From an uncultured Campylobacter sp. (GTDB lineage: Bacteria; Campylobacterota; Campylobacteria; Campylobacterales; Campylobacteraceae): a stretch of DNA of 64,000 nucleotides. Positions 3,479-58,443 of this stretch are shown one piece after another. Location of the stretch: NCBI GenBank assembly GCA_963529615.1, contig CAUSAC010000005.1:735-64734 (forward strand). The letters are read 5' to 3'. How positions within the stretch are numbered: the stretch's first letter is position 1; each line of letters opens with the position of its first letter. The notes under the pieces were generated by a model. It saw only the letters and a program-made list of their open reading frames with translations. It ran no database searches and had not been told where the DNA came from. A program made the translations under genes and the position numbers.

Positions 3479-3717
3479 AGCTTACCTCTTTTCAATCTTG
3501 CGTTTTGGATTTTTAAGCTGCAGTTTTCGCTCTCCTCGTTTTGTAGGGCCTCAATGCCGAAGCGAAGGGCAGTTTTAAGCTTTTCGTTATCGCTTTTAAG
3601 CTTTAAAATTTTTTCTTCGCTCTTACGAAGTAAGGCGTAAATTTTAGAATTTTTTCGGATCGATAGAATAAGTAGTGCTGCAAAAAATAGCGCTAAAACG
3701 CCTAATGCTACGCTCAT
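3475..3717 (-). CDS. Small membrane-anchored coiled-coil protein, unknown function
   Basis: 80 aa with an N-terminal TM helix followed by a K/E-rich helix. ATGA overlaps at both ends (rpiB stop, apt start) suggest translational coupling. Confidence 0.5.
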   Translation of the reverse strand: MSVALGVLALFFAALLILSIRKNSKIYALLRKSEEKILKLKSDNEKLKTALRFGIEALQNEESENCSLKIQNARLKRGKL

Positions 3718-5087: not shown

Positions 5088-5096
5088 TGCCGCTCC

Positions 5097-8814: not shown

Positions 8815-9489
8815 ATTTTAAGTATTTTGGAATTTTAAAATTCCAAAAACGGGTTTTGCGGCGTCAAATATAGAAGCTCCAGCCTGCTTTAAAATTTAAA
8901 ATCGCGCCGAAATCTATTTATACGCAATGAAATTCGCCCCCAAGATATCCGATACGGTAAATCAAACATATCGTCTTGCCAAAACCTCGAAATTTTAAAC
9001 CCGAATTCTAAATTTTAAAATTTCAAACGCCTCGAAATTTTAAAATTTTAGAAATTTAAAACTTTTTTAGAATTTTGAAATTCTTAAAATTTAAAGGCGG
9101 AGTCTGCTTGCAAGCTCGCCCGTAATCGCATAAATTTAAAATTTCAAATGCCACGCAGTGTCCTAGCCGTACGCTAAATTTAAGTATCACGCGCTGATTG
9201 ACTTGCGTTTTGCCGCACCGGCGCACCGCAACGGCGCTACGAAAACAAGTAGCCAAAGGCGCCGAGTGTGCTTTGAAATTTTAAAATTTCAAAACTAAAA
9301 TTACACCCTCTCGCACAGCTTTGCGCGCCGTCCGCGCGGCCTCGCGATCAAACTCCCCTTTAAAATTTTATGACGCCTTCCGCCCTCGACCGATCCGCTA
9401 AATACAAAAGCAAGATTGAAAAGCGCCGATCGCGCAATGCTCACAATCAAGATCACTGATCGCACGATACTTACGACCGATCGCCGCGC
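8786..9489. repeat. RAATTY-word-rich spacer between the Lol permease gene and secA
   Basis: Dense AAATTTTAAAATTT, GGAATTTTAAAATTCC and GAATTC words alternate with GC-rich words. The only long ORF translates to low-complexity sequence. Confidence 0.8.
9275..9290. repeat. Perfect 16-bp palindrome GAAATTTTAAAATTTC (type copy)
   Basis: It is its own reverse complement. Near-identical copies or one-off variants start at 8829, 9009, 9034, 18867, 23573, 23709, 23919, 38960 and 44011. Confidence 0.9.
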
Positions 9490-12108
9490 CTACCTCGCAA
9501 AGCCGCCTTTTTTCGGACCGCCCTTGCCGTGGCAGTCTTTGTATTTTTTGCCGCTGCCGCAAGGGCAAGGATCGTTTCGCTTAGGCTTTTTGTCGCCAAA
9601 CTCTTCTGCGCCCTTTAGCTGTGCTTCATTCGTGCTTGCGGCGGCGAGCTCTTTGGCGTTTGAGCTCTCCATGCGCTCCTGCATCGCGCGCTGTTCGGCT
9701 TCGATCTCCTCCCTAGATTTAAACTGGATCGAATGCAGCAAGCGGATGCTGTCGGATTTGAGGCGCATCACAAGCTCCATAAAAAGATTGTAGCTCTCCT
9801 TTTTATACTCCGTAAGCGGGTCTTTGTGGTTATAGCCGCGAAGTCCGATGCCCGCCTTTAGGATATCCATCTGATACAGATGCTCCCGCCAGTCGCGATC
9901 GACGATCTGCAGATAAAGCATCTTTTCGATACTTTTGCGCTGCTGCGGATCGATCGGCGCCATCTTGTTTTCATACGAAACGGCAAGCGCGCCGATGATC
10001 TTTTCTTTCAGCTCTTTGAAATCATCGACCTTCTCAAGCTCGCTGTTTTCGAGCACCTCGCCCGTTTCTTGAGCGATTTTGGCGACGATCGGGAATTTAT
10101 CGACCTCTTTGATATTTGCGCCGTCGAAAATTTCAAGCTCCTCAAGCACGCTAGAGATGTACTCCTCGCGGTTTTGAATGATTTTATCTTTCAGATCGTA
10201 GTCGGGGTCTAAAAGCTCGTTGCGATATTTATAGATCGTCTTGCGCTGCTCGTTTGCGACGTCGTCGTATTCTAGGATATTTTTACGCGCTTCAAAGTGC
10301 AAGCTCTCGACCTTTTTCTGCGCGTTCTCTACTGCGCGCGAAACCATGCCTGATTCGATATGTTCGCCGTCTTTCAAACCCAAGCGATCCATGATATTTT
10401 TAATCTTGTCGCTGCCAAAAATTCTAAGCAGATTATCCTCCAAGCTTAAGAAAAATCTACTCTCGCCCGGATCACCTTGGCGCCCGCTTCGTCCGCGGAG
10501 CTGATTATCGATACGGCGACTTTCGTGGCGCTCGGTACCTAAAATATACAGCCCACCCAAAGCGCGCACTTCGTCGTCTATGCGGATATCCACGCCGCGT
10601 CCCGCCATATTCGTAGCGATCGTAACTGCGCCCTTTACGCCTGCGTCTTTGATGATCTGCGCTTCACGCTCGTGATTTTTGGCGTTTAGCACGGAGTGCG
10701 CGATGTTTTCTTTAACCAAAAGCTCGTGCAGCTTCTCGCTCTTTTCAATCGATGCCGTACCCACTAGCACGGGCTGACCTTTGGAATTTAGCCGCTTGAT
10801 CTCATTTATGACGGCGTCAAATTTCTCGCGCTCGGTTTTGTAGATAAGATCGTTTTGATCCTTTCTGATGACCGGCACATTCGTAGGGATAGAGACCACT
10901 TCGAGTTTGTAAATTTGAGAAAATTCCGTTGCTTCCGTCTGTGCCGTACCCGTCATACCGGCGAGTTTTTCGTAAAGACGGAAGTAGTTTTGAAAGGTAA
11001 TGTCGGCAAGAGTTTGACTCTCCTCTTGGATCTGCACGCCCTCTTTAGCTTCAAGAGCCTGATGGAGCCCTTCGCTAAATCTGCGTCCCTCACTAAGACG
11101 ACCCGTAAATTCATCCACGATTATGACCTGCCCGTCGCGCACGACGTAGTGCACGTCCTTTTCAAATAGATAATTCGCCTTAAGTGCTTGATCAAGATAG
11201 TGGCTAAGCACGGCATTTTCGAGACTATAGAGATTATCGACGCCAAAAAGCTTCTCGGCTTTTGAAATTCCTGCCTCCGTAATCAAAACGGCGCGGTTCT
11301 TCTCATCTACGGTAAAATCACCCGTCGCCTTGCCTTTCGGATCGGCTGGCGCCTCGCCGCGGATCATTTGGCGAGCTACTTCGTTTGCCTTGATGTAGCC
11401 GTCTAGAGTGCGATTCGTAGGACCTGAGATGATTAGCGGCGTCCTGGCTTCGTCGATTAAGATGCTATCAACTTCATCGACGATTACGAAATTATGCCCA
11501 CGCTGCACCTTTTCATCCGCGCTAAATTTCATATTATCACGCAGGTAGTCAAAGCCAAACTCGTTGTTTGTGCCATAAGTGATGTCGCACGCGTATGCAG
11601 CCTTGCGCTTGGCGTCATCGTATTCGCCGCCTACGATCACACCGGTACTAAGCCCTAAAAATTCATATAGCTCGCCCATTTGCGCAGCATCGCGCTTGGC
11701 CAGGTAGTCGTTTACGGTCACGACATGCACGCCCTTGCCTTCCATCGCATTTAGCACTACCGCCAAGGTCGCTACGAGGGTCTTTCCTTCGCCCGTTTTC
11801 ATCTCGGCAATCGCGCCGTCGTTTAGCACCAAACCGCCTATTAGTTGAACGTCGAAGTGGCGCATATTTAGCACTCTTTTGCCCGCCTCTCGCACGATAG
11901 CAAACACTTCATTAAGCACGTCATCCGTGCTCTTTTCGCCCGCGCGAACTTGCGCTCTTAACGCTTCAAATTCCGCCTTAAGCGCCGCATCGTCCATCGA
12001 CGCGTAGTTTTCTTCAAGCGCACTGATCTGTGCTGCGCGCTTGGCGTATTGTTTGACGATCCTATCGTTTTTAGTACCGAAAATCCCGTGGATGACCTTT
12101 TTAAACAT
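9490..12108 (-). CDS. secA: Preprotein translocase ATPase SecA
   Basis: Starts [16 protein letters not shown]. It has the Walker A-type motif MKTGEGKT, a DEAD-like [19 protein letters not shown], and the C-terminal zinc motif [15 protein letters not shown] moved the start to the ATG at 12108. Confidence 0.97.
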
Positions 12109-16021: not shown

Positions 16022-16861
16022 TCACAGATATTTTTCCGCAAGCATATCCGAAAAGTTCGCCAGCGGCGCTGCGTGCGAGATCTTATCGGCATCATCGCAA
16101 ATCTCAATCATAAACGCAAAAAATCCGCCGAGCCGAGCCGCGATAAAGCCCGCCGCTTCGTTTTCGCCGTTTTCGTTTTTTCCGTTTATCTCCGCAACGG
16201 CGTTTTGATTATTTTTATTCGCGTTTTTGCCCGCCACAGCGCGAGCCTGCATAAAGATGCGCGCCAAAAACAGCAGCGCAAAAGGGATTGCGTGCCAAAG
16301 CGTACTTTGATGCTCTATCTCGTTAAAAATCTTACTAAGAGCGTCCTGAAGGGCTTTGGTATCAAATTTCTCCCGCTCGCTCGCATCCGAGCTCTTATTC
16401 GCCGCGCTCGTTTTAAATTTACTAGCCTGGCTCGCTTTAAATTTTATCGCCGCGCTATCCGCACTCTTAAATTCCGCCTTGCCGCACTTCGCCGCGTCTG
16501 TTTTAAGCTCCGTCTCTCCGCCCGCTTTAAATTTCGCAGCCTCGTTATCCGCCTTTTGAAATTTGGACTCGCTCGTTTGCGCTAAATTTACGGAATTTTG
16601 CGCCGCGCCGCATCTTGCTGCATCCGTAGAATTTTGCCCGCAACCGAGCTCGCTTTTTAAATTTTGCCCTGCTCCGGGCTTGCTTTTTAAATTTTGCTCG
16701 CCGCCCAAGCCGCGCGCCTCATCACAAGCTTCGATTGCCCGCGCGAGTTTCTCAAAAATTTCAGCAAACTCGCTCGCCCTGCCGTAAGCGGTCGTGAGCC
16801 TACTCCACGGCACGTCCTGCACTTTTAAATTTGCGATATATTTCAAATTTTGCTCATTCAT
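16022..16861 (-). CDS. Hypothetical HEAT-like protein with a large low-complexity insert; possibly truncated by an in-frame TGA
   Basis: The N-terminus VPWSRLTTAYGRASEF and the later block IEHQSTLWHAIPFALLFL resemble an uncharacterised family with a W-x-x-L-x-x-AYG N-terminal motif. The middle 120 aa is KFK/NLK-rich. Confidence 0.5.
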   Translation of the reverse strand: MNEQNLKYIANLKVQDVPWSRLTTAYGRASEFAEIFEKLARAIEACDEARGLGGEQNLKSKPGAGQNLKSELGCGQNSTDAARCGAAQNSVNLAQTSESKFQKADNEAAKFKAGGETELKTDAAKCGKAEFKSADSAAIKFKASQASKFKTSAANKSSDASEREKFDTKALQDALSKIFNEIEHQSTLWHAIPFALLFLARIFMQARAVAGKNANKNNQNAVAEINGKNENGENEAAGFIAARLGGFFAFMIEICDDADKISHAAPLANFSDMLAEKYL

Positions 16862-16977
16862 CCGCGCTCCTTGCGAATATTTTTAAATTTAAGCCTCGCG
16901 AGCCGCTAAAATCTGCGCTCTCGGTTCAAATTTAGCCTCTTTCGCACGCAAATTTAAACCGAGCCCGGGCGCAAATT

Positions 16978-22394: not shown

Positions 22395-23306
22395 ATGAAA
22401 ACTGTGATTTTTGATATGGATGGCACGCTGCTCGATTCCTCGCGCGCGATCGAAATCAGCGTCAATAACACTCGCCGCGAGCTCTACGGCCTAGCGCCAC
22501 TGCAAAAGAATTTCATCGTCCACACCATCAACGATCCAAGCAAAAACGCCTTTTTGGAATTTTACGGCAAAACCGAAGCGAGCGCCGAAGAGCTTGCTTT
22601 TTTCGAGAAGGAATTCGTAAGCAATTACCGCGATTTTGCCGTGCTTTACGAGGGTATCGAAGATCTTTTGCACTCGTGCAAAAAAGCAGGATTTTTTCTC
22701 GCAGTCGCCTCCAATGCACCTTCCTACACCCTAAGCGCGATCTTAGAAAAAACGGGCGTGCGCAGGCTATTTGATCTGGTCGTAGGCGCGGACGAGCAGA
22801 TGCCATCAAAGCCCAACCCTGCGATGCTGCTACACGTAATCGCGCGCTCACCGCACAAAAACGCGATTTTTTTAGGCGATAGCAAAAAAGATGAGCTAGC
22901 CGCGATCCGTGGCGCGGAATTTTTACAAAATTTAGAATTTCAAGGCGGCAATGACGGCGAGAGCTTAAATGCCAGCCGCGATACGAGTAGAAAGAATTTC
23001 AGCGCTAGTGAGGGCTTAAACTCTTGCGACGAAAATCTTAACGCGGATGAAAAATTTCGCCCTAACGACACAGGTGCTGACGGAGCGGCAACGCTAAGTT
23101 TTAAAGGCGCCAGAATTTCCGCAAAAGCAGAAGCGACAAAGGAGGCACAAGCTGCGGCAGCACGATGTTTTCAGGCAAACTTGGCAGATCTAAGAGGCGC
23201 AAAACTTGAGTATTTGCAGGTATGCTGGGGGTTTGGCGAGCCTAGCGAACTAAGTCGCAATGCCCTAAGCATCGCACAAGCGCGCGAAATCATCGGCAGA
23301 ATTTAA
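22395..23306 (+). CDS. HAD-superfamily hydrolase (phosphoglycolate-phosphatase-like) with an in-frame insert of about 95 aa
   Basis: Motif I is VIFDMDGTLLDS, motif II is AVASN, and motifs III/IV are SKPNP...FLGDSKKD. The last conserved block (VCWGFG) is separated from the rest by low-complexity sequence. Confidence 0.8.
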   Translation: MKTVIFDMDGTLLDSSRAIEISVNNTRRELYGLAPLQKNFIVHTINDPSKNAFLEFYGKTEASAEELAFFEKEFVSNYRDFAVLYEGIEDLLHSCKKAGFFLAVASNAPSYTLSAILEKTGVRRLFDLVVGADEQMPSKPNPAMLLHVIARSPHKNAIFLGDSKKDELAAIRGAEFLQNLEFQGGNDGESLNASRDTSRKNFSASEGLNSCDENLNADEKFRPNDTGADGAATLSFKGARISAKAEATKEAQAAAARCFQANLADLRGAKLEYLQVCWGFGEPSELSRNALSIAQAREIIGRI

Positions 23307-24238
23307 AGCAGCCCGGCTTTTTAGGCATAGCTAATTAAAAGCAGTATTGCAGCATGGCAAAAATCACGCTTAACTCTTAAAACAGAGCAAATTCCATCCT
23401 CGCGCGCAACGTAAGCGAGGTTAAATTTAAAAATAATCCTTGCGCGAAAAGTTCCGCTAGCACGAGAAACTGGGATTTCATCTGCGCAAGTGGAATTTAA
23501 AATTTTAAAGTATCTTTTGTAGTGCGCGATTTTATCTGCGTGAAAAATGAAATTCTATCTGTAAAAGGTGGCGAAATTTTAAAATTTAAAGACGCCTTCT
23601 CGCGGCTTAATTTAAAATTTGCCTCGAAAGCCAGACTTAAAATTTAATGCCAAACGCGATTTTGGAATTTTGCTGCGTCCATGGAGTTTCAAATTCTCGC
23701 AAAGCGGCGGAATTTTAAAATTTTAAAACGCCTGATCTGTGTTATGCACGCGAGTAGATTTTGCATAAGTAGAATTTATCCGCCGTGCAGAAATCAAAAT
23801 TTTACCGCACAAGCAAAGCTAAAATCCTCTCCGCCTACGCAAAATTCAAGAATTTTACCGCTCAAGCAAAGCGAAATTCTATCCACTCACGCGAAATCTA
23901 AAATTTTACTCGCGCCACAAAATTTTAAAATTTCCGTAAAAATCAAGCTGTTTATCTGTAAATTTAAAATTCCGCCTTCTGCAAAGCTTCGCGTTTAATC
24001 CGCCACGCGACCAAGATTAAATTTTTAAATTCCGCTCGCTCTGCCTATCTCGCAAACAAGTAAAATTTTAAAATTGCGAAATCTAAAGCCCAAAATCCCG
24101 CGCTTAAGCTTAAAATTTACCGCACGCAAGCGCAAAATCTGCGCAATCGCTCCTGTTTAAAAACCCCGATAGTTTGCCGCGCCCTAACCTAAATTAAATT
24201 TTACATTTGCTATAATCGCGAAATTTTAAGGAAGGTAA
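23307..24238. repeat. RAATTY-word-rich spacer of about 930 bp
   Basis: It uses the same vocabulary and contains three degenerate units of about 52 bp, starting at 23798, 23851 and 23902. Confidence 0.8.
24208..24216 (+). promoter_or_regulatory. Extended -10 element upstream of the small ORF-ispB-hemA-proS operon
   Basis: TGcTATAAT, 22 nt upstream of the ATG at 24239. Similar gcTATAAT elements occur at 22005, 12190 and 51616. Confidence 0.45.
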
Positions 24239-24484
24239 ATGGATATTTTTGAAAGCAGCCCAAGAGAGAAATTTTTTGAAATTTTATCCGCTGCAAGCCC
24301 TACTTTAGTGCAAAACGAAATCGAAGAAGCTCTAATCCGCCTCATCGCCTGTGAGCGGCTCTGCGAAGCGCGCGGCATTAGCGAGCGCGAGATCGAAAGC
24401 TTCATCGCGCAGCAGGATCTACAAGACGAGCTAAACGACAAATTTTTGCAAATGAGCGGAAATATCCTAAGCAATAACGAATAA
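24239..24484 (+). CDS. Small helical protein, possibly DUF2018-like (H. pylori HP0241/0242 neighbourhood)
   Basis: 81 aa. It sits directly upstream of ispB-hemA-proS, as small hypothetical genes do in H. pylori. The family assignment is from memory only. Confidence 0.45.
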   Translation: MDIFESSPREKFFEILSAASPTLVQNEIEEALIRLIACERLCEARGISEREIESFIAQQDLQDELNDKFLQMSGNILSNNE

Positions 24485-25476
24485 TGCAAGATCAAATTGA
24501 TTTAATTATGAAAAGCTTCATCGCAGACTGCGGATATGAGCCCGCTAGCGAGATGTTTGACAGGCTAAGCCCCGGCAAAAAACTGCGCTCCAAGCTGCTG
24601 CTAAACATCGCGCAAAAGGATGAAAAATCGCTGCACCTGTGCGCTATCATCGAGCTCATTCAAGCTGCGAGCCTGCTGCACGACGACGTCATCGACGAAA
24701 GCTCGATGCGCCGCGGCAAACCCTCGATCAACGCTACCTACGGCTCCAAAAACGCCGTGATGCTGGGCGACATACTCTATTCCAAGGCATACTTCGAGCT
24801 TAGCAAATTTGAAAGCCGTATCGCCGCTGCGCTTTCGCTCGCCGTCACAAAGCTAGCCGTGGGCGAGCTGATGGACGTGAGCTTAAGCAACGATTTCAAC
24901 TACGATGCGAGCAAATATCTGCAGATGATCTATCTAAAAACCTCCGCTCTCATAGAGGAGGTCGCGCGCTGCGGGGCTTTTTTGAAATTCGGCGGCGCAG
25001 AAAATCGCGGCGAAATTTCAGATATTAACGGCGCAAAAAACGAGGGCAGGAATCCGAACGCCGCGAAAGATCATGATAAAATTTCAAGCGCGAGCGCAAA
25101 ATTCGGCGAATACGGCAAAAACCTTGGGCTTGCCTTTCAGATTATCGACGATATTTTAGACGTTACGCAAAGCTCAGAAGCGCTCGGTAAGCCGAGCCTT
25201 AGTGATTTTGCGGAGGGCAAAACCACCCTGCCCTACATCTATTTATACGAAAATTTAAATGATTCCGAGCGGCAAAAGCTAAAATCATTTTTTAAAAAAC
25301 AGCTTTGCCAGAGCGAAATTTCATGGATCAAGGCGAAGTTTAGCGAGCACGGCATCATCGAGCGCTGTATAAACGAAGCTCGCGCCTACGGGCAAAAGGC
25401 GCTTGAAGCCGTGGCGGAATTTAAAAACGACAAGCTAGAGCAAATCGTGCGAGATATGATAGATAGGGAGTTTTGA
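24484..25476 (+). CDS. ispB: Polyprenyl (octaprenyl) diphosphate synthase with an in-frame insert
   Basis: First DDxxD is LLHDDVIDES and second is QIIDDILD. An extra G/N/K-rich segment of about 40 aa lies between them. Confidence 0.88.
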   Translation: MQDQIDLIMKSFIADCGYEPASEMFDRLSPGKKLRSKLLLNIAQKDEKSLHLCAIIELIQAASLLHDDVIDESSMRRGKPSINATYGSKNAVMLGDILYSKAYFELSKFESRIAAALSLAVTKLAVGELMDVSLSNDFNYDASKYLQMIYLKTSALIEEVARCGAFLKFGGAENRGEISDINGAKNEGRNPNAAKDHDKISSASAKFGEYGKNLGLAFQIIDDILDVTQSSEALGKPSLSDFAEGKTTLPYIYLYENLNDSERQKLKSFFKKQLCQSEISWIKAKFSEHGIIERCINEARAYGQKALEAVAEFKNDKLEQIVRDMIDREF

Positions 25477-27032
25477 TGGCGTATATGAGCGTGAGCTTCA
25501 CCCACAAAAACACGGACATCACGGTGCGCGAGAAGCTGTCGTTTTCAAACGACGTGCGCAAGAAAGAAATTTTGCGCCTTTTAGCTTCAAACTCCGCAAT
25601 AGAGGAGTGTTTGGTGCTTAGCACCTGCAACCGCGTAGAAATTTTTACCGTCGTAAGCGACTTTGACGAAGCGCAAAAATTCGTGCTTTTGGCACTTTCG
25701 CGCATTAGCGGCGTGAGCTTTGAAGAGCTGCAAAACCTAGCCGATATATATGAGGATCGCGGCGCGATACACCACCTTTTCGCCGTCGCAGCATCCCTTG
25801 ATAGCCTCGTAGTGGGCGAAACGCAGATCGTAGGTCAGCTCAAAGACGCCTATAAATTCGCAATGCAAAACGCTCGCGCCGGCGCTCAAATCGCAAAAGC
25901 CATAGATGAAGCGCTAAAGTGCGCGGCGCGCATCCGCAATCAAACCGAAATTTCAAAAAATCCAATCTCGGTCTCAAGCGTCGCCGTAGCGATGGCAAAA
26001 GACAGGCTGGGCTCCTTGCAGGGCGCGGACGCCGTGGTAGTGGGCGCGGGAGAGATGAGCGAGCTAGCGTGCAAACACCTGCTCGCAAACGGCGCGAATA
26101 TCACGATCTTAAATCGAAATTTAGCCGGCGCGCAGAGGCTAGCCGCCTCGCTACTTGGCGAGAATTCCTTGGATGCGAAAGATTGCGCGGATGAAAATCC
26201 CGGCACAGGAAAAAATTCAGACGGCTTAAATTCCGAAAATGTCGCGAATTTCGCGGGCGAAAATGTCGCGCAAAAACAAAATTCCAAAGACGGCGTAAAT
26301 TTTAATAAAGAGATTTTCGCAGACGGCAATGAATCTCGCATAGCAGGCGAAAATTCCAAAGGCGATAAAAATTCTGCCGCCTTCGTGAATTCTGCCGCGC
26401 AGGCACAATCCCGCATCAAAATCGATAGCCTTGATAATCTCAAAAAATATCTGAACGTAAATAGCCTATTCTTCAGCGCTACAGGCTCGCAAGAGCCGAT
26501 CATTACCGATAGCTTGCTTGAGCCCAAAAGCTTTAAGCGATATTTTTTCGATATAGCCGTGCCGCGCGACGTAGAGCTTAGTCAGAGCGAGGACGTCGAG
26601 GTTTACAGCGTCGATGATTTGGAGGAGATCGTAAAGAAAAATTTGATCCTTCGCGAGGAGCAGGCGCAGATCGCTTACTCGATCGTGGCGAAATGCACGA
26701 ATGAATTTTTCAAATGGCTCAAGGCAGCGGCATCCACGCCGATCATCAAGGCTTTGCGCCAAAGCGCGAAACAAGTAGCCGAGCTAGAGCTAGCCAAGGC
26801 GCTTAAAAAGGGCTATCTAAAGCGCAGCGATGCACAGGAGGCGCGCAAGCTGATCCATCAGGTTTTTAAAGCGTTCCTGCACGCTCCGACGGTAAATTTA
26901 AAAAACCTTGGCGACGCGGATAATGCCGATAACGCGGTAAACGCGCTGGTCGAAATTTTTGAACTGCAAGAAAACTACGAAAAATTTTTAAATCAAGAAA
27001 ACGAGAAAAAGGACAGACAGAATGAAATTTAG
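25476..27032 (+). CDS. hemA: Glutamyl-tRNA reductase with an in-frame insert of about 85 aa
   Basis: SFTHKNTDITVREKLSF, STCNRVEIF (catalytic Cys) and the NADPH site VVVGAGEMSE. The ATG at 25476 overlaps the ispB stop (TGATG). The length is about 518 aa; C. jejuni HemA is roughly 430 aa as I recall. Confidence 0.93.
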   Translation: MAYMSVSFTHKNTDITVREKLSFSNDVRKKEILRLLASNSAIEECLVLSTCNRVEIFTVVSDFDEAQKFVLLALSRISGVSFEELQNLADIYEDRGAIHHLFAVAASLDSLVVGETQIVGQLKDAYKFAMQNARAGAQIAKAIDEALKCAARIRNQTEISKNPISVSSVAVAMAKDRLGSLQGADAVVVGAGEMSELACKHLLANGANITILNRNLAGAQRLAASLLGENSLDAKDCADENPGTGKNSDGLNSENVANFAGENVAQKQNSKDGVNFNKEIFADGNESRIAGENSKGDKNSAAFVNSAAQAQSRIKIDSLDNLKKYLNVNSLFFSATGSQEPIITDSLLEPKSFKRYFFDIAVPRDVELSQSEDVEVYSVDDLEEIVKKNLILREEQAQIAYSIVAKCTNEFFKWLKAAASTPIIKALRQSAKQVAELELAKALKKGYLKRSDAQEARKLIHQVFKAFLHAPTVNLKNLGDADNADNAVNALVEIFELQENYEKFLNQENEKKDRQNEI

Positions 27033-38590: not shown

Positions 38591-39043
38591 ACGCCCATCC
38601 TGTTTCGTTGGAATAATTTTGTGATTATATTATTTTGTAAATTAAATTTCACGAATTTTAGGCGCTAAATCGGGTCGAATTTCAAATTTAATAGCGGCGC
38701 AGACGGGGCGAAATTTTGGAATTTAGAAAGAGTGGAAAAGGCAAATTTAAAATTTAGCCATAAATTTAAAACGGACGGGATGTTCGGATTTAAAATTTTA
38801 AAGTGCAGATTTGTTTCGACCAAACGCGGCACGGAATTTTTAACGTAAAATTTTGGCTTGAAATTTTACCACGCGAGGCTTGGATTGAATTTATAAAATT
38901 TTTTGGAATTTTATCGTAGCGCGAAGCAACGCCAGCGTAAATTTTAAATTCTACGTTACGAAATTTTAAAATTTAGCCGTAAATTTAGGGCGGGCGGAAT
39001 CTCGATTATAAAATTCTAAAATCCCGCCCGCATAAAATAAATT
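38591..39043. repeat. RAATTY-word-rich spacer
   Basis: It uses the same vocabulary, for example GAAATTTTAAAATTTA at 38960-38975. Confidence 0.7.
38990..39031 (-). terminator. GC-rich hairpin downstream of the ComEA-like gene
   Basis: GCGGGCGG...26-nt loop...CCGCCCGC, 13 nt after the stop at 39044. Confidence 0.35.
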
Positions 39044-39766
39044 TTAAAACCCTCTATCTACCTGCACGCCTACGCCCACACTAGCGCAGTTGCCGCTTTG
39101 CGGATCGCAGTCGCCGAAGCTTGTGACGCTACTGGATCTTTTTGAGCGGATCGTTCCCATATGCATAGGCACCGGCATGTTACGGCGCGAGCTTCCGCCG
39201 ATTTCGCTATCGCTCATACTATTAGAACTTCTCCTGCGAGAATAATCATCGCGCGGAGGTGGCGGTGGCGGAGGAGGTGGTTTTATACCTCCGTGCGGAG
39301 GTGGTGGCATGCCGCCAGGAGGCGGGGGAGGAGGCGGCATCATGTCGCCGTGCCTACCATATGCTCGCGGAGGAGGCGGCGGTAAAGTACCGGTCTCTGT
39401 GATCGTGATGCCATTGCCGTAATTTTCAACGCGTTTGTAAGTATAGCCTCCGTAAACCGTGCGGGTGCGGGTCTTTTCGACTACGACTATATCGCGATCA
39501 GGCTGCACCGGCTGCTGCACATTAGCTCTAGGCGATATTTCAAAGCTCTTCTGCAGTTTAGCAGTATCGTAACTTGCAAAGCCGTTGATGCCCTTTAGCT
39601 CATCTGCACTTGAAATTTCGCGCTTTTGGCGGTATTGCATAAGCATATCCGCCCTGCCCGCATCAAGCCCACCGATCGTCATCAGCTCGTAGCGACTAGC
39701 TTCATTTATGTTGATTTTCGCCGCGGCGAGGCTCACTAAAAGAGCCAAAATCACTAAATTTTTCAT
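39044..39766 (-). CDS. Secreted ComEA-like helix-hairpin-helix protein fused to a polyproline-rich region
   Basis: ATG at 39766 behind AAAGGGG. A signal peptide is followed by KININEASRYELMTIGGLDAGRADMLMQYR (ComEA-type HhH). Then come PPPPP...PPPPPPP...PPPPPPPPP runs and an S/R-rich tail. Confidence 0.6.
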   Translation of the reverse strand: MKNLVILALLVSLAAAKININEASRYELMTIGGLDAGRADMLMQYRQKREISSADELKGINGFASYDTAKLQKSFEISPRANVQQPVQPDRDIVVVEKTRTRTVYGGYTYKRVENYGNGITITETGTLPPPPPRAYGRHGDMMPPPPPPPGGMPPPPHGGIKPPPPPPPPPRDDYSRRRSSNSMSDSEIGGSSRRNMPVPMHMGTIRSKRSSSVTSFGDCDPQSGNCASVGVGVQVDRGF

Positions 39767-39879: not shown

Positions 39880-41478
39880 ATGAACGGAATTTTGCTCCTA
39901 TGCGACGAGCCTGTCGCCTACCAATCCGAACTAAAAAAACTAGATAAAATTTTATCCATGAGCTTTCACAACGTTTTGCAACTTTGCATCGCGGGAGAAA
40001 ATGCTCTTTTTGGCAGAAGCGAACTTGAAAGAGCGCTAGCGGACGGGCAGGATGAGCGCGTGCGAAAGGCGGCAATAGAGCGCTTCGCACAAATTTTAGA
40101 GCAGTGTAATTTTGTGCTGGTTCGCGGCGTAGCGGGAGCCGATCTGCGCGAGCTAAATTTACAAATCGCAAAGGATCTAAATATTCCCGTTTGCGGATTT
40201 TATCCTAACGAAATTGCCGCGCGCATCGGCACGCACTCGATCGCTGCAGCAAAAGCGGTAAGCTTTGCCAGCATATATGAAGGTAAAATTTCATTTTCCG
40301 CGCTAAGACCTGCACAAGAGGGTGTAAATTCTAAAAAATTGGAGCTTTGCGGCAAAAATTCTGCCTGCGAAAGCGATGCAAAATTTCACGACGAAAATTC
40401 CGCTTGCCAAAGCGGCGCGATAGAGCTTGATAAAGTCGTTGCCGACAAAAGCTACTTCACTGACGCCGCAAACTCCACGCGCTGTGAAATTCTAACTCCG
40501 TTGAAATTTGAAAGCAAGCTATACGCCAAGGCTCGCGCGAACGTTAAAACCGTCGTACTGCCCGAAAGCGACGATGAGAGAATTCTACGCGCGGCTGCAA
40601 TTATAAAACAAAGCGGCGCTGCAAATTTGATCCTTTTAGGACGCGAGGATGAAGTGCAAAAAAGCGCAAGCAAGCTAGGTCTCGATCTAGCGGGCGTTAA
40701 AATTTTAGATCCGCAGACGGATGCGAGCTTGGAAAAATTTGCGCGCGATCTATATGAGCTTCGCAAGGCAAAGGGTATGAGCGAGGCGCAGGCGCGCGAT
40801 TTAGTGCGCGACCGCACCTACTTCGGCACGATGCTCGTGCATGAAGGGCTGGCCGATGCGATGGTAAGCGGTGCCAGCACGACTACTGCGGAGACGATCC
40901 GCCCCGCGCTTCAGATCATCAAGACAAAACCGGGCATCGCGACCGTTAGCGGCGCGTTTATAATGTGCCTGGATACGCAGGCGCTGCTTTTTGCCGACTG
41001 CGCCGTAGCGCCGAGCCCGAGCGCGGAGTATCTGGCGGGTATCGCGATCTCAAGCGCCGCGACCGCAAAGGCGTTCGGGCTTGAACCGCGCGTGGCGATG
41101 CTAAGCTACTCAAGCGGCGATAGCGGCAGCGGCGACAGCGTAGAATTTATCAAAACGGCGACGCAAAAAGCGCGCGAAAAGGCGCCGGAGCTTCTAATCG
41201 ACGGGCCGCTACAATTCGACGCCGCAGTCGATGCCGCAGTCGCTAAGAAAAAGATGCCGGGCTCTGCGGTCGCAGGGCGCGCGAACGTATTTATCTTCCC
41301 CGATCTTAACTGCGGAAATATCTGTTATAAGGCCGTGCAGCGCACCGCAGGCGCCGTGGCGATCGGACCGATTTTACAGGGCTTAAAAAAGCCGGTAAAC
41401 GATCTAAGTCGCGGCTGCAAGGTCGCCGATATCGTAAACACGATACTTATCAGCGCAATTCAAGCGGGAGAGAATTAA
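39880..41478 (+). CDS. pta: Phosphate acetyltransferase
   Basis: The C-terminal PTA_PTB domain is clear: VVLPESDDERILRAA...MVSGASTTTAETIRPALQII...FPDLNCGNICYK. I chose the ATG at 39880, which follows AAAGGA. Confidence 0.92.
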   Translation: MNGILLLCDEPVAYQSELKKLDKILSMSFHNVLQLCIAGENALFGRSELERALADGQDERVRKAAIERFAQILEQCNFVLVRGVAGADLRELNLQIAKDLNIPVCGFYPNEIAARIGTHSIAAAKAVSFASIYEGKISFSALRPAQEGVNSKKLELCGKNSACESDAKFHDENSACQSGAIELDKVVADKSYFTDAANSTRCEILTPLKFESKLYAKARANVKTVVLPESDDERILRAAAIIKQSGAANLILLGREDEVQKSASKLGLDLAGVKILDPQTDASLEKFARDLYELRKAKGMSEAQARDLVRDRTYFGTMLVHEGLADAMVSGASTTTAETIRPALQIIKTKPGIATVSGAFIMCLDTQALLFADCAVAPSPSAEYLAGIAISSAATAKAFGLEPRVAMLSYSSGDSGSGDSVEFIKTATQKAREKAPELLIDGPLQFDAAVDAAVAKKKMPGSAVAGRANVFIFPDLNCGNICYKAVQRTAGAVAIGPILQGLKKPVNDLSRGCKVADIVNTILISAIQAGEN

Positions 41479-42710
41479 TGGATATCCTAGTCATAAATTC
41501 CGGCTCGAGCTCGGTTAAATTTAAATTCCACGATATGCTAAATCACGCCTGCATTGCAAGTGGGCTCATCGAGGAGATCGGATCGACGCACGCAAGCGGA
41601 AGCATCAATTGCGCCAATGGACGAGGCATAAAGGTTGAAAACGAGCAAATTCCAAATCACGAAACCGCGATTGCGATTGCGATTGATCTTTTAAAACAAA
41701 GCGGAGTAATCAACGATCTAACTCAAGTAGGCGGCATCGGGCATAGAATAGTCCAAGGTGCGGATTATTTCGACGCTCCTGCACTCATAGATGAGGACGT
41801 AATGGCTAAAATCGCCGAGCTTGCGCCGCTTGCACCACTACACAATCCCGCAAATTTAGCAGGCATTAAATCCTGCCTAAAGATTGCTCCTAAAATTCCA
41901 AACGTTGCGGTTTTCGATACGATATTTCATCAAAGCATCCCGCCTTATGCGTATATGTACGCGCTGCCGTATGAATTCTATGAAAAATATAAGGTTCGCC
42001 GCTACGGCGCGCACGGCACATCGCATTGGTTTGTCTCGACGATGGGGGCGAAATTTTTACGTAAGAAATACGAAAACTTCAATGCCATTACGCTACATCT
42101 TGGCAACGGCTCGAGCGTGAGCGCCATAGAAAACGGCAAGTGCATCGACACCTCAATGGGGCTAACGCCGCTTGAGGGGATCATCATGGGCACCAGATGC
42201 GGCTCGATCGATCCTGCGATCATCCCATACATCGAGCGCGTCGCGGGCTACAACGCGCAGGATATGGACGTCATAATGAACAAAAAAAGCGGACTGCTCG
42301 GCATCTGCGGCGCAAGCGATCTGCGAAAAGTATATGAAAAGATGGAGGATGGCGAGCCGCGTGCGAAACTTGCGTTTGAGATGCTAGTTTACAGCGTCGT
42401 TAAGATGATCGGAGCGTATTATGCCGTGCTCGGGCGTGTGGACGCTTTGATCTTTACCGGAGGTATCGGCGAGAACGCGCCGCATTTTAGGCAAAATGTC
42501 TGCGAGAGACTCGCTCATATCGGCATCGAAATCGATGCGACAAAAAACGCCAAAAATACTGGATCGATTAGAAATTTAAGCGCGGCGGATAGTAAAATCA
42601 AAACGCTCGTAATCCCTACCAACGAGGAGCTGGCGATCGCTGAAGCTACGGTCGATACGATCAACAAAAATTCCGCGCAGATCGACTATCAGAAATACTC
42701 GGAATTTTAA
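41478..42710 (+). CDS. ackA: Acetate kinase
   Basis: 410 aa with ILVINSGSSSVKF, HRIVQG, PLHNP and TGGIGEN. It has a TAATG overlap with pta. Confidence 0.96.
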   Translation: MDILVINSGSSSVKFKFHDMLNHACIASGLIEEIGSTHASGSINCANGRGIKVENEQIPNHETAIAIAIDLLKQSGVINDLTQVGGIGHRIVQGADYFDAPALIDEDVMAKIAELAPLAPLHNPANLAGIKSCLKIAPKIPNVAVFDTIFHQSIPPYAYMYALPYEFYEKYKVRRYGAHGTSHWFVSTMGAKFLRKKYENFNAITLHLGNGSSVSAIENGKCIDTSMGLTPLEGIIMGTRCGSIDPAIIPYIERVAGYNAQDMDVIMNKKSGLLGICGASDLRKVYEKMEDGEPRAKLAFEMLVYSVVKMIGAYYAVLGRVDALIFTGGIGENAPHFRQNVCERLAHIGIEIDATKNAKNTGSIRNLSAADSKIKTLVIPTNEELAIAEATVDTINKNSAQIDYQKYSEF

Positions 42711-42922
42711 ATTTTATCTAGCGGGATTCCGCGGTTATTTTGCGAGCAGCGACGCCAACTTGCCTTTTTTGTTAGGCAATTAAAGTTTGGGACTTGGCTG
42801 TGAGCTTGCATGAAATGAAAGGGCTTTCTTTATTTTAGTAGCTTTCTCGCTCCGACGATACGAGAAGTTGCTACGCTACATACGAGTTTGTGCTTTTCTT
42901 GATAAGGCTTAAATTCTTCCTC

Positions 42923-42969
42923 GGGGGCGGAAGGGGTTCTACTTACGAAGCGTCGCCCCTTCCGCCCCC
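42923..42969. other. Perfect 14-bp GC-rich inverted repeat of unknown function
   Basis: GGGGGCGGAAGGGG-19 nt-CCCCTTCCGCCCCC, followed by AACCCCCCCAC. It is unlike any other hairpin in the window. Confidence 0.6.
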
Positions 42970-43184
42970 AACCCCCCCACTATCCCCACTTGCACGTTAG
43001 AGGTGGCAAAGCTTTGTTTTTAAACAAATCTTTGCTGGTTAAATTTAATAAATTTGGTTTCAAATTTGACCGCAAAATTCCAAAACAGCTCCTTATTGTG
43101 AAATTTACCGGATAATAAGGCATAAAATTTTAAAATTTAGCGCAAGCCGGGTTTTGCCGTAAAGATTTATTAAAGGAGCGAACG

Positions 43185-43478
43185 ATGAGCGATTTGCTAA
43201 ATTCACAAGGCACGCAAGAGCAAGAGGCGCCGTATCCCGATACGAAATTTATCAAATTTTTCGGGCGACTTTACGCGGCAGTTTTTGCGCTGTTTGCGAT
43301 CACGGCGCTTAGCGTATTCGAGCTACCCGAAAATATTTTAGACGTAAGCGCAGCATGCGCGGACTTCGTTAGATTTATGAAGCGGTTTTTTCCAAACATC
43401 GCCGCAATCGGCAAAATAAGCCCACATACGCAGCTTGCGGAATTTTACGTCGCGGCATTGTGTGGGTACCTATTTTAA
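43185..43478 (+). CDS. Hypothetical membrane protein, possibly the 5' part of a disrupted gene
   Basis: 97 aa with one clear TM helix. It is in the same frame as ORF 43557-43760, and two stops lie between them. Confidence 0.3.
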   Translation: MSDLLNSQGTQEQEAPYPDTKFIKFFGRLYAAVFALFAITALSVFELPENILDVSAACADFVRFMKRFFPNIAAIGKISPHTQLAEFYVAALCGYLF

Positions 43479-43556
43479 CGGCTTTCGCGCTAAGCTGCGT
43501 GTATTGCCACATTCTTATACAAAAAAGAGCTTCCCGCCGTCAAGACGCAGCTAATT

Positions 43557-43760
43557 ATGCTTATCGGCATACCTTTTATCTATTGGCTTCTAAATAATTA
43601 TTTCTACGCCGATTTTGCCGTAAACGGCATCCCACACAGAGTAGGCAACGGGCGGACGTTTCCTACTTTTGCGAGCAGAGAAAGCCTTTTTGGTTGGCTA
43701 TCGTTTTTTGGAGGCGGCTCAATGTTTTTTTGGTATGTCTGTTCCGATTTTATTCAGTAA
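43557..43760 (+). CDS. Hypothetical membrane protein, possibly the 3' part of a disrupted gene
   Basis: 67 aa and hydrophobic, with no convincing RBS of its own. Confidence 0.25.
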   Translation: MLIGIPFIYWLLNNYFYADFAVNGIPHRVGNGRTFPTFASRESLFGWLSFFGGGSMFFWYVCSDFIQ

Positions 43761-44042
43761 TATAGTCCACTGGATATCTATCGAGAAATAAAAGCTAAAT
43801 TTTATGAAATCATGGACTAATAAAATTCCGCACCAATAACTTTCAGGGTCATTTTACGAGCGCAAAGCGAGCGAGCGATAAAATTCTGCGCTCCGTTTTA
43901 GAACAAAAACAAGCGACGATTAAATTTAAACGCTCCGGCAATTAGAGCCTTTTTGCGCGGAATTTAAGCGAGCAAACTACGATTAAATTTAAACCGTAAG
44001 CGGCCGCTTTTAAATTTTAAAATTTCACTAAATTTTAAAATT

Positions 44043-58365: not shown

Positions 58366-58418
58366 AATTTACAAAGGCAAAATCGCTTTTTAGTCGCAAA
58401 TTTTATTTTAAAAAGTGA

Positions 58419-58443
58419 CGGATGAAAATCATCTTTTCATCCG
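58419..58443. terminator. Hairpin after the flavodoxin-like gene; T-run only on the minus strand
   Basis: CGGATGAAAA-tcatc-TTTTCATCCG, a perfect 10-bp stem. On the minus strand it is followed by TCACTTTTTAAAATAAAATTT. Confidence 0.45.

What the first reader, a model, noticed from the sequence alone, without database searches (positions are those of the whole stretch)
26154..26414. HemA carries an in-frame insert of about 85 aa made of spacer-like RAATTY-rich DNA
The conserved HemA blocks are intact on both sides (NADPH site up to about residue 227, resuming near IKIDSLDNLKKYL). Between them lies a G/N/S/K/E-rich segment: ENSLDAKDCADENPGTGKNSDGLNSENVANFAGENVAQKQNSKDGVNFNKEIFADGNESRIAGENSKGDKNSAAF. 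The DNA contains nine RAATTY hexamers between 26162 and 26392, against almost none in the flanking hemA sequence. The same phenomenon recurs in at least five other conserved enzymes in this window (listed separately). It resembles the in-frame insertion of Rickettsia palindromic elements into essential genes. Here, though, the inserts share word composition rather than a consensus sequence.
Basis: partly seen in the sequence, partly recalled or inferred. Interest (0 to 1): 0.7.

Follow-up and report, generated by a model that had tools for sequence, protein, structure and literature searches.

The report
Hypervariable disordered loop inserted in HemA
A housekeeping haem-synthesis enzyme of a Campylobacter gracilis-like bacterium carries an extra, floppy 85-residue loop. 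The loop is built from short repeats of the DNA word RAATTY, and it is one visible symptom of a genome-wide pressure that packs this word into every tolerant stretch of DNA.

Summary
hemA (25476-27032, 518 aa) has an in-frame extra segment of about 85 aa at 26154-26414. It holds nine RAATTY hexamers, all read as AAT-TYN.

In diverse HemA proteins this loop is 0-9 aa long, including C. sputorum, C. canadensis and C. ureolyticus. All 49 full-length hemA genes from the C. gracilis-like clade carry 31-85 extra residues. A good AlphaFold model places the segment between helix 216-227 and strand 314-318 of the NADPH domain, as low-confidence coil.

The DNA is a degenerate 18-nt repeat. Natural 66- and 90-nt length variants break inside GGCGAAAAT repeats. 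Diversity is flat across codon positions, and dN/dS is 0.52 against 0.095 in the flanks. Two unalignable insert types coexist on flanks that are 91-94% identical.

It is not a Rickettsia-type palindromic element. It has no copies elsewhere, no consensus and no hairpin.

RAATTY occurs at 9 times the base-composition expectation across the window. It is 2.4-fold enriched (z=20) even in ordinary genes after synonymous-codon shuffling.

Best reading: a slippage-generated, nearly unconstrained expansion loop that accumulates a genome-favoured word.

Speculative lead: RAATTY is the Campylobacter methylation and DNA-uptake motif.

The parts
25476..27032 (+). hemA (glutamyl-tRNA reductase) CDS, 518 aa plus stop. 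The start ATG overlaps the ispB stop (TGATG).
   Evidence: ORF list. Three Pfam GluTR domains. PDB sequence hits 4N7R at E=2.5e-42 and 1GPJ at 3.3e-26. Foldseek top hits are all GluTR structures.
26121..26156 (+). Helix aB of the NADPH-binding Rossmann domain (aa 216-227, AGAQRLAASLLG). This is the last conserved element before the insert.
   Evidence: AF2 model on alignment A2 gives H216-227 with pLDDT above 85. Alignment to 1GPJ ends at query residue 229.
26154..26414 (+). In-frame expansion segment (aa 227-313; net excess about 85 aa). It is rich in Asn, Ala, Gly, Ser, Asp, Glu and Lys and is predicted to be disordered. It holds nine RAATTY words, all read as AAT-TYN.
   Evidence: In the AF2 model, residues 231-301 have pLDDT below 50 and no secondary structure.
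26209..26391 (+). Degenerate codon-phased repeat family. Six copies of a 24-nt unit centred on AAAATTC lie at spacings of 18, 51, 54, 18 and 18 nt.
   Evidence: the repeat finder family D1. RAATTY spacing is 51, 15, 18, 33, 18, 54, 18, 18.
26234..26270 (+). Exact 13-nt direct repeat CGAAAATGTCGCG (26234-26246 and 26258-26270) with a 77% copy between the two.
   Evidence: the repeat finder family D2.
26370..26398 (+). Exact 11-nt direct repeat AATTCTGCCGC, two copies 18 nt apart.
   Evidence: the repeat finder family D4.
26201..26266 (+). 66-nt block absent from a natural allele (L021, 496-aa HemA). The breakpoints lie in two GAAAAT..CG words.
   Evidence: Junction analysis. Protein alignment, rows P0004 and P0024.
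26256..26345 (+). 90-nt block (5 x 18 nt) absent from the 488-aa alleles (L025-L032, L052). The breakpoints lie in a 10-nt direct repeat GGCGAAAAT(G/T).
   Evidence: Junction analysis. Alleles listed.
26415..26429 (+). Strand b3 of the Rossmann domain (aa 314-318, IKIDS), where conserved HemA sequence resumes.
   Evidence: AF2 gives E314-318 with pLDDT above 90. Alignment to 1GPJ resumes at query residue 320.

Best explanation
The 261-nt segment is translated as part of HemA. It forms a disordered surface loop of about 85 residues between helix aB and strand b3 of the NADPH-binding Rossmann domain. By general Rossmann topology (inference), a helix-to-strand loop lies on the edge of the sheet opposite the cofactor. 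It is therefore expected to be catalytically inert.

It is a lineage-specific expansion segment of the C. gracilis-like clade, not a mobile element. It was built, and is still being remodelled, by duplication and deletion of short codon-phased units of about 18 nt. These events arise from slipped-strand mispairing or microhomology-mediated recombination. The units are centred on the word AAATTC/GAAAAT.

Selection keeps the segment open, in frame and hydrophilic, and otherwise hardly constrains it.

Its RAATTY richness reflects a DNA-level pressure acting on the whole genome of this lineage. The word accumulates wherever protein constraint is weakest, namely in spacers and in tolerant loops of many enzymes.

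Shown here:
- the insert position and its lineage restriction;
- the repeat structure and the length variants with breakpoints inside repeats;
- the flat codon-position diversity;
- the genome-wide RAATTY excess.

Inferred:
- slippage as the generating process;
- lack of catalytic function;
- translation of the segment.
For: Position and restriction:
- The loop is 0-9 aa in 55 of 57 diverse HemAs and 88 aa here.
- All 150 best 50%-identity cluster representatives match in two stretches broken at this point.
- C. ureolyticus reads LINELNA|DIKYEPF. C. sputorum (435 aa) reads LGIN.

Structure:
- AF2 on 60 sequences gives mean pLDDT 84. Residues 231-301 are below 50 and coil, between H216-227 and E314-318.

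Repeats and indels:
- There is an 18-nt periodic family and exact 11-nt and 13-nt direct repeats.
- Alleles carry 85, 63 or 55 extra residues (type A) and 84, 80, 55, 54, 50 or 31 (type B). All length differences are multiples of 3 nt.
- The 66-nt and 90-nt variants break inside GGCGAAAAT repeats.

Weak constraint:
- dN/dS is 0.52 in the insert and 0.095 in the flanks.
- Nucleotide diversity by codon position is .087/.060/.088 in the insert and .025/.026/.148 in the flanks.
- Type A and type B inserts are 48-56% identical, which is the level of shuffled sequence. Their flanks are 92-93% identical.

The DNA word, not the peptide, is primary:
- Asn is AAT in 14 of 14 codons (background 54%).
- Ser is TCT, TCC or TCA in 9 of 9 codons (background 21%; AGC 53%).

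The frame is kept open:
- Only 3.4% of 261-nt intergenic windows are free of stops.
- The frame is open in all 49 genomes.

Genome-wide pressure:
- RAATTY occurs at 10.5 per kb, 8.9 times the base-composition expectation. Same-composition control words occur at 0.3-1.6 per kb.
- AAATTT is the most over-represented hexamer.
- RAATTY is enriched 2.36-fold (z=20) over synonymous-codon shuffles in 44 ordinary genes.
- In the same four genes the ratio is 2.35 here and 1.22 in C. ureolyticus.
Against: - No protein-level evidence shows that the loop is present in mature HemA.
- Diversity in the insert (0.078) is below the third-position diversity of the flanks (0.148), and dS is lower in the insert (0.13 against 0.26). 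The segment is therefore either under some uniform constraint or its type-A allele is younger than the flanks. I cannot tell which.
- Most lineages keep the full 84-85 residues in both types. This could mean that length matters.
- Low pLDDT may partly reflect that only 3 of the 60 aligned sequences have residues in these columns.
- Slippage is inferred from repeat-bounded indels. It has not been observed directly.
Confidence: 0.7

Rival explanations
1. The RAATTY density is not a passive mutational signature. It results from a molecular drive like that acting on DNA uptake sequences. In Campylobacter, RAATTY is the target of a conserved m6A methyltransferase, and methylated RAATTY is what lets C. 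jejuni take up DNA. On this view, fragments dense in the motif are taken up and recombined preferentially. The motif, and repeat units that carry it, would then spread into spacers and tolerant protein loops such as this one.
For: - The enrichment has exactly the R...Y specificity. AAATTY outnumbers AAATTR by 543 to 34 here, against 50 to 23 in C. ureolyticus and 13 to 9 in an unrelated bacterium of similar GC.
- YAATTR is depleted to 0.48-fold and RAATTY enriched 2.36-fold over codon shuffles.
- Density rises as constraint falls: 6.3 per kb in ordinary genes, 19.7 in spacers, 27.1 in inserts.
- Absolute density (10-14 per kb) is as high as in the AT-rich C. ureolyticus locus (8 per kb), although GC here is 48%.
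- The hemA flanks are recombination mosaics.
- Literature: RAATTY methylation is conserved in Campylobacter (PMC13436318, PMC4294202). Uptake in C. jejuni requires CtsM-methylated RAATTY (PMC10046745, PMC8468864). Uptake sequences accumulate at poorly conserved protein positions (PMC2817400).
Against: - Nothing here shows that this lineage has a CtsM orthologue, methylates RAATTY or is naturally competent.
- A context-dependent mutation bias, or selection for A-tract/T-tract DNA geometry, predicts the same gradient.
- GAATTC itself is not enriched (O/E 1.3).
- RAATTY words inside the insert are only slightly, and not significantly, better conserved than the rest of it (0.055 against 0.085, p=0.12).
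Confidence: 0.2
2. The loop is a selected functional module of HemA in this clade. It might be a regulatory or degradation tag, a docking site for a partner such as HemL, or a solubility-enhancing 'entropic bristle'. The two insert types would then be alternative functional alleles.
For: - dN/dS is 0.52, below 1.
- The frame is kept open in all 49 genomes.
- Both unrelated types have nearly the same modal length, 85 and 84 aa.
- Divergence in the insert is lower than at synonymous sites of the flanks.
Against: - Natural alleles lack 22, 30 or up to 54 of the residues.
- The two types share no recognisable sequence.
- Diversity across codon positions is flat.
- Codon choice follows the DNA word, not the genome's usage.
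- The same kind of segment sits in unrelated enzymes.
- No structure is predicted for the segment.
Confidence: 0.08
3. The segment is a decayed insertion of a small mobile element of the RPE or MITE type. It would have landed in frame, as Rickettsia palindromic elements do.
For: - It is an in-frame addition in a surface loop of an essential enzyme.
- Similar additions occur in several genes and in spacers of the same genome.
- The insert gives many more weak word-level matches to the window than shuffled versions do, 56 against 4.
Against: - The best match elsewhere in 64 kb scores 29.7 bits, equal to the best score from shuffled queries.
- There is no hairpin. The folding z-score is +1.0, and 172 of 200 shuffles fold at least as well.
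- There are no terminal inverted repeats at the borders and no target-site duplication.
- The internal structure is a codon-phased tandem repeat.
- Two unrelated sequences occupy the same site.
Confidence: 0.03

Closest known systems
Rickettsia palindromic elements (RPE) inserted in frame in protein-coding genes
   Same: Extra peptide segments are added in frame to conserved, essential proteins at tolerant surface positions. The same kind of DNA is also found between genes, and many genes in one genome are affected.
   Different: RPEs are copies of a defined 100-150-nt palindromic consensus that spread as a selfish element. The segment is a local tandem repeat, and two unrelated versions occupy the same site.
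Low-complexity (Asn-rich) insertions in housekeeping proteins of Plasmodium falciparum and similar 'expansion segments' (from my own knowledge)
   Same: These are hydrophilic, disordered, fast-evolving and length-polymorphic loops inside otherwise conserved enzymes. They are generated by slippage, and their composition mirrors the genome's oligonucleotide bias.
   Different: This is a bacterium with a balanced GC content of 48%. The bias concerns one specific hexamer class (RAATTY) and not general AT richness.
DNA uptake sequences (USS/DUS) of Haemophilus and Neisseria in coding regions (PMC2817400)
   Same: A short DNA word is strongly over-represented genome-wide, inside genes beyond what codon usage explains. 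It is concentrated at poorly conserved protein positions and read in tolerated frames.
   Different: USS and DUS are 9-12-nt words with proven uptake bias, and they do not build long inserts. Here the word is a 6-mer. Its link to uptake is known only for C. jejuni, through methylation, and is untested in this lineage.
Ehrlichia ruminantium tandem-repeat expansion and contraction, and its long spacers (from my own knowledge)
   Same: The lineage has unusually long intergenic regions, about 22% of this window. The HAD-ispB spacer is 1174 nt here and 278 nt in C. ureolyticus. The spacers appear to be shaped by repeat turnover.
   Different: In Ehrlichia the repeats are clear tandem arrays, mostly non-coding. 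Here the repeats are degenerate, word-based and also lie within enzymes.

Membership tests
Glutamyl-tRNA reductase (HemA/GluTR) | Three-domain architecture: N-terminal catalytic domain, NADPH-binding Rossmann domain and C-terminal dimerisation helix domain | tested here: met
   Pfam finds GlutR_N (1.5e-43), Shikimate_DH (4.6e-31, split by the insert) and GlutR_dimer (1.2e-22). Foldseek top hits are 5CHE, 5YJL, 4N7R and 1GPJ, with E from 5e-23 to 4e-19.
Glutamyl-tRNA reductase (HemA/GluTR) | Conserved catalytic Cys in the S-T-C-N-R motif and the G-x-G-x-x-G nucleotide-binding motif | tested here: met
   T50, C51, N52, R53, G190 and G192 are invariant in the 60-sequence alignment A2.
Rickettsia palindromic element-like selfish insert | Copies elsewhere in the genome that share a consensus sequence | tested here: not met
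   blastn of the insert against the 64-kb window gives a best score of 29.7 bits, equal to the maximum from shuffled queries. Only one window was searched, not a whole genome.
Rickettsia palindromic element-like selfish insert | Palindromic sequence able to form a stable hairpin | tested here: not met
   MFE is -64.9 kcal/mol against -69.8 +/- 4.7 for shuffles, giving z=+1.03.
Rickettsia palindromic element-like selfish insert | In-frame insertion at a tolerant surface position of a conserved protein | tested here: met
   The insert lies in the loop between helix aB and strand b3 and is predicted to be coil.
MITE / IS-derived insertion | Terminal inverted repeats at the borders and a target-site duplication | tested here: not met
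   The only inverted repeats are 10-14-nt imperfect arms inside the segment or in the flank upstream of it, not at its borders. No flanking duplication was found.
Intein | N-terminal Cys/Ser, C-terminal His-Asn followed by Cys/Ser/Thr, a splicing domain of more than about 130 aa | tested here: not met
   Read directly from the sequence. The segment starts ...LLGENS and ends ...AQAQSR|IKID, and is about 85 aa (31-85 across alleles). Pfam reports only the three GluTR domains for the protein.
Slippage-generated low-complexity expansion segment | Internal short direct repeats with a period that is a multiple of 3 | tested here: met
   18-nt family D1 and exact repeats D2 and D4. RAATTY spacings are all multiples of 3.
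Slippage-generated low-complexity expansion segment | In-frame length polymorphism among close relatives, with breakpoints in the repeats | tested here: met
   Nine length classes occur among 49 genomes. The 66-nt and 90-nt variants are bounded by GAAAAT/GGCGAAAAT repeats.
Slippage-generated low-complexity expansion segment | Relaxed selection on the amino-acid sequence, and disorder | tested here: met
   dN/dS is 0.52 against 0.095. Codon-position diversity is flat. pLDDT is below 50 and the segment is coil.
Uptake-sequence-like driven motif | The motif is over-represented beyond base composition and beyond codon usage | tested here: met
   8.9 times the composition expectation. 2.36-fold over synonymous-codon shuffles, z=20. 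Specific to the lineage.
Uptake-sequence-like driven motif | The organism's uptake machinery prefers DNA carrying the (methylated) motif, and the cognate methyltransferase is present | not testable with these tools
   This is known for C. jejuni only (PMC10046745, PMC8468864). I had no CtsM sequence to search with and no methylome data for this clade.

The most novel reading that the evidence does not exclude
In the C. gracilis-like clade, the Campylobacter methylation and DNA-uptake motif RAATTY behaves as a driven 'selfish word'. Preferential uptake and recombination of motif-dense DNA would have inflated spacers to about a fifth of the genome. The same drive would have seeded codon-phased RAATTY repeat loops into many housekeeping enzymes, including HemA, RpiB, IspB and a HAD hydrolase. 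The protein inserts would then be a by-product of transformation bias and not of protein function.
Probability: 0.2. Interest if true: 0.8.

Novelty: new variant of a known kind. Interest (0 to 1): 0.6.

Why it matters
It shows a free-living, host-associated bacterium with a balanced GC content whose essential enzymes carry long, hypervariable and apparently functionless loops. The make-up of those loops is dictated by a DNA-level preference for one hexamer.

That hexamer is the conserved Campylobacter methylation motif, which gates DNA uptake in C. jejuni. The system therefore offers a way to test whether transformation bias can reshape proteomes and genome architecture far more strongly than classical uptake sequences do.

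There are practical consequences too. The inserts inflate protein lengths and split domain hits. They create dimorphic alleles that confound orthology calls and species delimitation in this MAG-rich clade. They could also serve as high-resolution strain markers.

Tried and rejected
- AlphaFold on the shallow clade-only alignment A1 gave an unusable model with mean pLDDT 38. The 60-sequence alignment A2 was needed.
- RNA evidence is weak. No public run holds more than 21% of the words. Contigs of one run guessed to be RNA cover 25890-26444 without any joint, but DNA contamination cannot be excluded.
- Rfam found nothing in the whole window.
- Promoter-like and terminator-like sites in hemA are at the level of shuffled sequence.
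- Tandem Repeats Finder did not call the insert because its repeats are too degenerate. It found only a 27-nt repeat at the 3' end of the gene.
- I looked for homology between the type A and type B inserts. Only the first 60 nt show marginal similarity (z of about 2.2-3.2). The middle and the end are at shuffled level. This leaves open whether the two types share ancient common ancestry or arose as independent expansions.
- The idea that RAATTY words inside the insert are specially conserved was not significant (p=0.12).
- Literature searches for C. gracilis protein inserts or comparable bacterial cases returned nothing relevant.
- An intein, an assembly artefact and a pseudogene were considered and rejected. 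The segment has no splicing motifs. It appears in 49 independent assemblies, including C. gracilis records named by NCBI. The frame is always intact.
Full report
**What is there.** The finding lies inside hemA (glutamyl-tRNA reductase), window 25476-27032 on the + strand, 518 aa.
- Pfam finds all three GluTR domains. The NADP-binding domain is reported in two stretches.
- The nine RAATTY hexamers are at the stated positions. All nine sit in one codon phase, AAT-TYN, giving Asn-Ser or Asn-Phe.
- Density is 34.5 per kb. Ordinary genes of the window have 6.3 per kb, and base composition predicts 1.2 per kb.
The rest of hemA holds 12 RAATTY in 1296 nt.

**It is an insert, and it is lineage-specific.**
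- Against the M. kandleri structure 1GPJ, the alignment stops at query residue 229 (chain residue 214) and resumes at 320 (chain residue 219).
- An exhaustive search of 1.8 billion cluster representatives returned 150 best HemAs. All matched in two stretches broken at this point.
- In an alignment of 57 of them, the loop is 0-9 aa in 55. The two exceptions have 22 and 31 aa. Here it is 88 aa.
- Named relatives without the insert are C. sputorum (435 aa, loop LGIN), C. canadensis (414 aa), H. pullorum (443 aa) and C. ureolyticus (LINELNA|DIKYEPF).
- The organism belongs to a C. gracilis-like complex. The nearest proteins are 'uncultured Campylobacter sp.' and C. gracilis.
- All 49 full-length hemA genes of the complex, the window plus 48 of the 57 loci fetched from one-genome-per-species contigs, carry extra residues here.

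**Structure.**
- A shallow alignment gave a useless model.
- With 60 diverse sequences, AlphaFold gave mean pLDDT 84 and pTM 0.73. Conserved parts score above 90.
- Residues 231-301 score below 50 and have no secondary structure. They lie between helix 216-227 and strand 314-318.
- Foldseek confirms the GluTR fold.
- A helix-to-strand loop of a Rossmann fold lies on the edge opposite the cofactor. This is established topology applied by inference. I did not measure distances in the model.

**Anatomy of the DNA.**
- The segment is a degenerate tandem repeat with an 18-nt (six-codon) period built around AAAATTC. It also contains exact 13-nt and 11-nt direct repeats. RAATTY spacings are 51, 15, 18, 33, 18, 54, 18 and 18 nt.
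- Codon choice shows that the DNA word, not the peptide, is what recurs. Asn is AAT in 14 of 14 codons (genome 54%). Ser is TCT, TCC or TCA in 9 of 9 (genome 21%; AGC is 53%). Lys is AAA in 7 of 7.
- The 5-mer make-up scores +0.10 on an intergenic-versus-coding log-odds scale. That is inside the intergenic distribution (+0.15 +/- 0.18) and above 99.5% of coding windows (-0.18 +/- 0.10).
- It is nevertheless not a piece of spacer. Spacers show RAATTY doublets 7-8 nt apart (AAATTTTAAAATTT), which the insert lacks.
- Only 3.4% of 261-nt spacer windows are free of stops in a given frame.

**Evolution.**
- Among the 49 genomes the insert falls into two sequence types. Type A (35 genomes, including the window) has 85, 63 or 55 extra residues. 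Type B (14 genomes, including C. gracilis) has 84, 80, 55, 54, 50 or 31.
- All length differences are multiples of 3 nt.
- The 66-nt and 90-nt type-A variants have their breakpoints in GAAAAT/GGCGAAAAT direct repeats, with up to 10 nt of microhomology. This is the signature of slipped-strand or microhomology-mediated events.
- Types A and B are 48-56% identical in global alignment, the same as shuffled sequence (50 +/- 1.5%). Their flanks are 92-93% identical. Only the first 60 nt show marginal similarity.
- Flank identity is almost the same within and between types: AA 0.93-0.94, BB 0.92-0.93, AB 0.91-0.92. An N-terminal haplotype is shared across types. The locus is therefore a dimorphic cassette in a recombining complex.
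- Within type A, dN/dS is 0.52 in the insert and 0.095 in the flanks.
- Nucleotide diversity by codon position is flat in the insert (.087/.060/.088) and strongly periodic in the flanks (.025/.026/.148).
- Total divergence of the insert is lower than third-position divergence of the flanks. This means either some uniform constraint or a younger allele. That point is unresolved.

**Not a mobile element.**
- blastn of the insert against the window finds nothing better than shuffled queries do (29.7 bits), though it finds many more weak word-level matches (56 against 4).
- The RNA/DNA strand has no excess folding (z=+1.0).
- There are no terminal inverted repeats or target duplications.
- Intein features are absent.

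**The wider pattern.**
- RpiB (3717-5096, - strand) has about 96 extra residues between positions 58 and 61 of the solved enzymes, plus a C-terminal extension of about 215 residues. It holds 24 RAATTY in the Asn phase.
- IspB has about 32 extra residues relative to the H. pylori structure. The insert is present in all clade loci, with sequence variation.
- The HAD hydrolase has about 96 extra residues relative to C. ureolyticus. Across the clade its insert is 99-152 aa, and one lineage (L044) has an unrelated 152-aa version.
- An LMW phosphatase is also affected. The Pta linker and an unassigned ORF (16025-16882) look similar.
- In the ORF at 16025-16882 the word is read both as Lys/Glu-Phe and as Asn-Leu/Ser. 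This again points to the DNA word as primary.
- Syntenic HAD-ispB-hemA-proS genes are 213, 302, 436 and 570 aa in C. ureolyticus and 303, 330, 518 and 569 aa here. The HAD-ispB spacer is 278 nt there and 1174 nt here.
- About 22% of the window is intergenic.

**A genome-wide RAATTY pressure.**
- RAATTY occurs at 10.5 per kb in the window, 8.9 times the base-composition expectation. The five same-composition control words occur at 0.3-1.6 per kb.
- AAATTT is the most over-represented hexamer under a dinucleotide model.
- AAATTY outnumbers AAATTR by 543 to 34. The counts are 50 to 23 in the C. ureolyticus locus and 13 to 9 in an unrelated genome of similar GC.
- In 44 ordinary genes without inserts, RAATTY is 2.36-fold above synonymous-codon shuffles (z=20), and YAATTR is depleted to 0.48-fold.
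- For the same four genes the ratio is 2.35 here (inserts removed) and 1.22 in C. ureolyticus.
- Density follows constraint: 6.3 per kb in genes, 19.7 in spacers and 27.1 in inserts.

**Interpretation.**
- The best-supported account is a slippage-generated, nearly unconstrained expansion loop in a permissive position of HemA. Its composition is set by a lineage-wide DNA-level preference for RAATTY.
- The cause of that preference is open.
- RAATTY is the target of the m6A methyltransferase conserved across Campylobacter (PMC4294202, PMC13436318). Methylated RAATTY is required for DNA uptake in C. jejuni (PMC10046745, PMC8468864).
- Classical uptake sequences accumulate at poorly conserved protein positions (PMC2817400).
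- An uptake-driven 'selfish word' model therefore fits the pattern. However, it rests on properties not shown for this lineage, and a mutational or DNA-geometry bias predicts the same gradient. I give it about 0.2.

**Novelty.**
- Lineage-specific low-complexity inserts in housekeeping proteins are a known kind.
- I found no report of this case.
- Three features appear to be a new variant: a bacterium with balanced GC content, a single palindromic word class, and a dimorphic cassette inside a core enzyme.

Noticed in passing
window 3717-5096 (- strand): The RpiB-like ORF is 457 aa from its Met, where about 150 aa is usual. About 96 extra residues lie between positions 58 and 61 of solved RpiB structures, and there is a stop-free C-terminal extension of about 215 residues. 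The ORF holds 24 RAATTY in the Asn-Ser/Phe phase.
   Followed up: partly
window 24982-25099 (ispB, 24484-25476): The octaprenyl-diphosphate synthase has an insert of about 32 aa relative to the H. pylori structure 3TC1 and to C. ureolyticus. The insert is present in all 47 clade loci checked, mostly at one length, with variable sequence. Its variants do not follow the hemA insert types, which indicates recombination.
   Followed up: yes
window 22911-23199 (HAD hydrolase, 22395-23303); locus L044: The HAD-family hydrolase has about 96 extra residues before the C-terminal WGFG motif, where C. ureolyticus has 6. Across the clade the segment is 99-152 aa. L044 carries an unrelated 152-aa version.
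   Followed up: yes
whole window; e.g. 8864-9492, 23304-24477, 38630-39046: About 22% of the window is intergenic. The spacers are packed with AAATTTTAAA-type words: the 10-mer occurs 62 times counting both strands, and RAATTY doublets lie 7-8 nt apart. The HAD-ispB spacer is 1174 nt here and 278 nt in C. ureolyticus, and it ranges from 1038 to 1183 nt across the clade.
   Followed up: partly
whole window: RAATTY, the conserved Campylobacter m6A and DNA-uptake motif, occurs at 8.9 times the composition expectation. It is 2.36-fold enriched (z=20) over synonymous-codon shuffles in ordinary genes. AAATTY outnumbers AAATTR 16 to 1. GAATTC alone is not enriched.
   Followed up: yes
window 16025-16882 (- strand): This 286-aa ORF has no Pfam match. 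Its central ~130 aa are low-complexity repeats, with RAATTY spaced 30 nt apart. The same DNA word is read as Lys/Glu-Phe in one part and as Asn-Leu/Ser in another.
   Followed up: no
window 41476-44045 and 58363-59846: These two stretches, 2.5 kb and 1.5 kb, have no ORF of 130 aa or more, are dense in RAATTY and have no Rfam match. Their nature was not examined.
   Followed up: no
window 26953-27010: A 27-nt tandem repeat (2.1 copies, 84% matches) lies at the 3' end of hemA. It encodes the conserved C-terminal tail ...FELQENYEKFLNQENEKK.
   Followed up: no
window 25940-26527 (- strand): A 195-aa antisense ORF spans the insert. One antisense frame of the insert is also free of stops. It is probably a by-product of the stop-poor word composition. 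There is no evidence that it is a gene.
   Followed up: no
hemA N-terminal region, window about 25710-25760; loci L001-L053: Two haplotypes of a short segment (SFEELQNLADIYEDR and SYDELAERADIYEDY) are distributed across both insert types. This shows a recombination mosaic within the species complex.
   Followed up: partly
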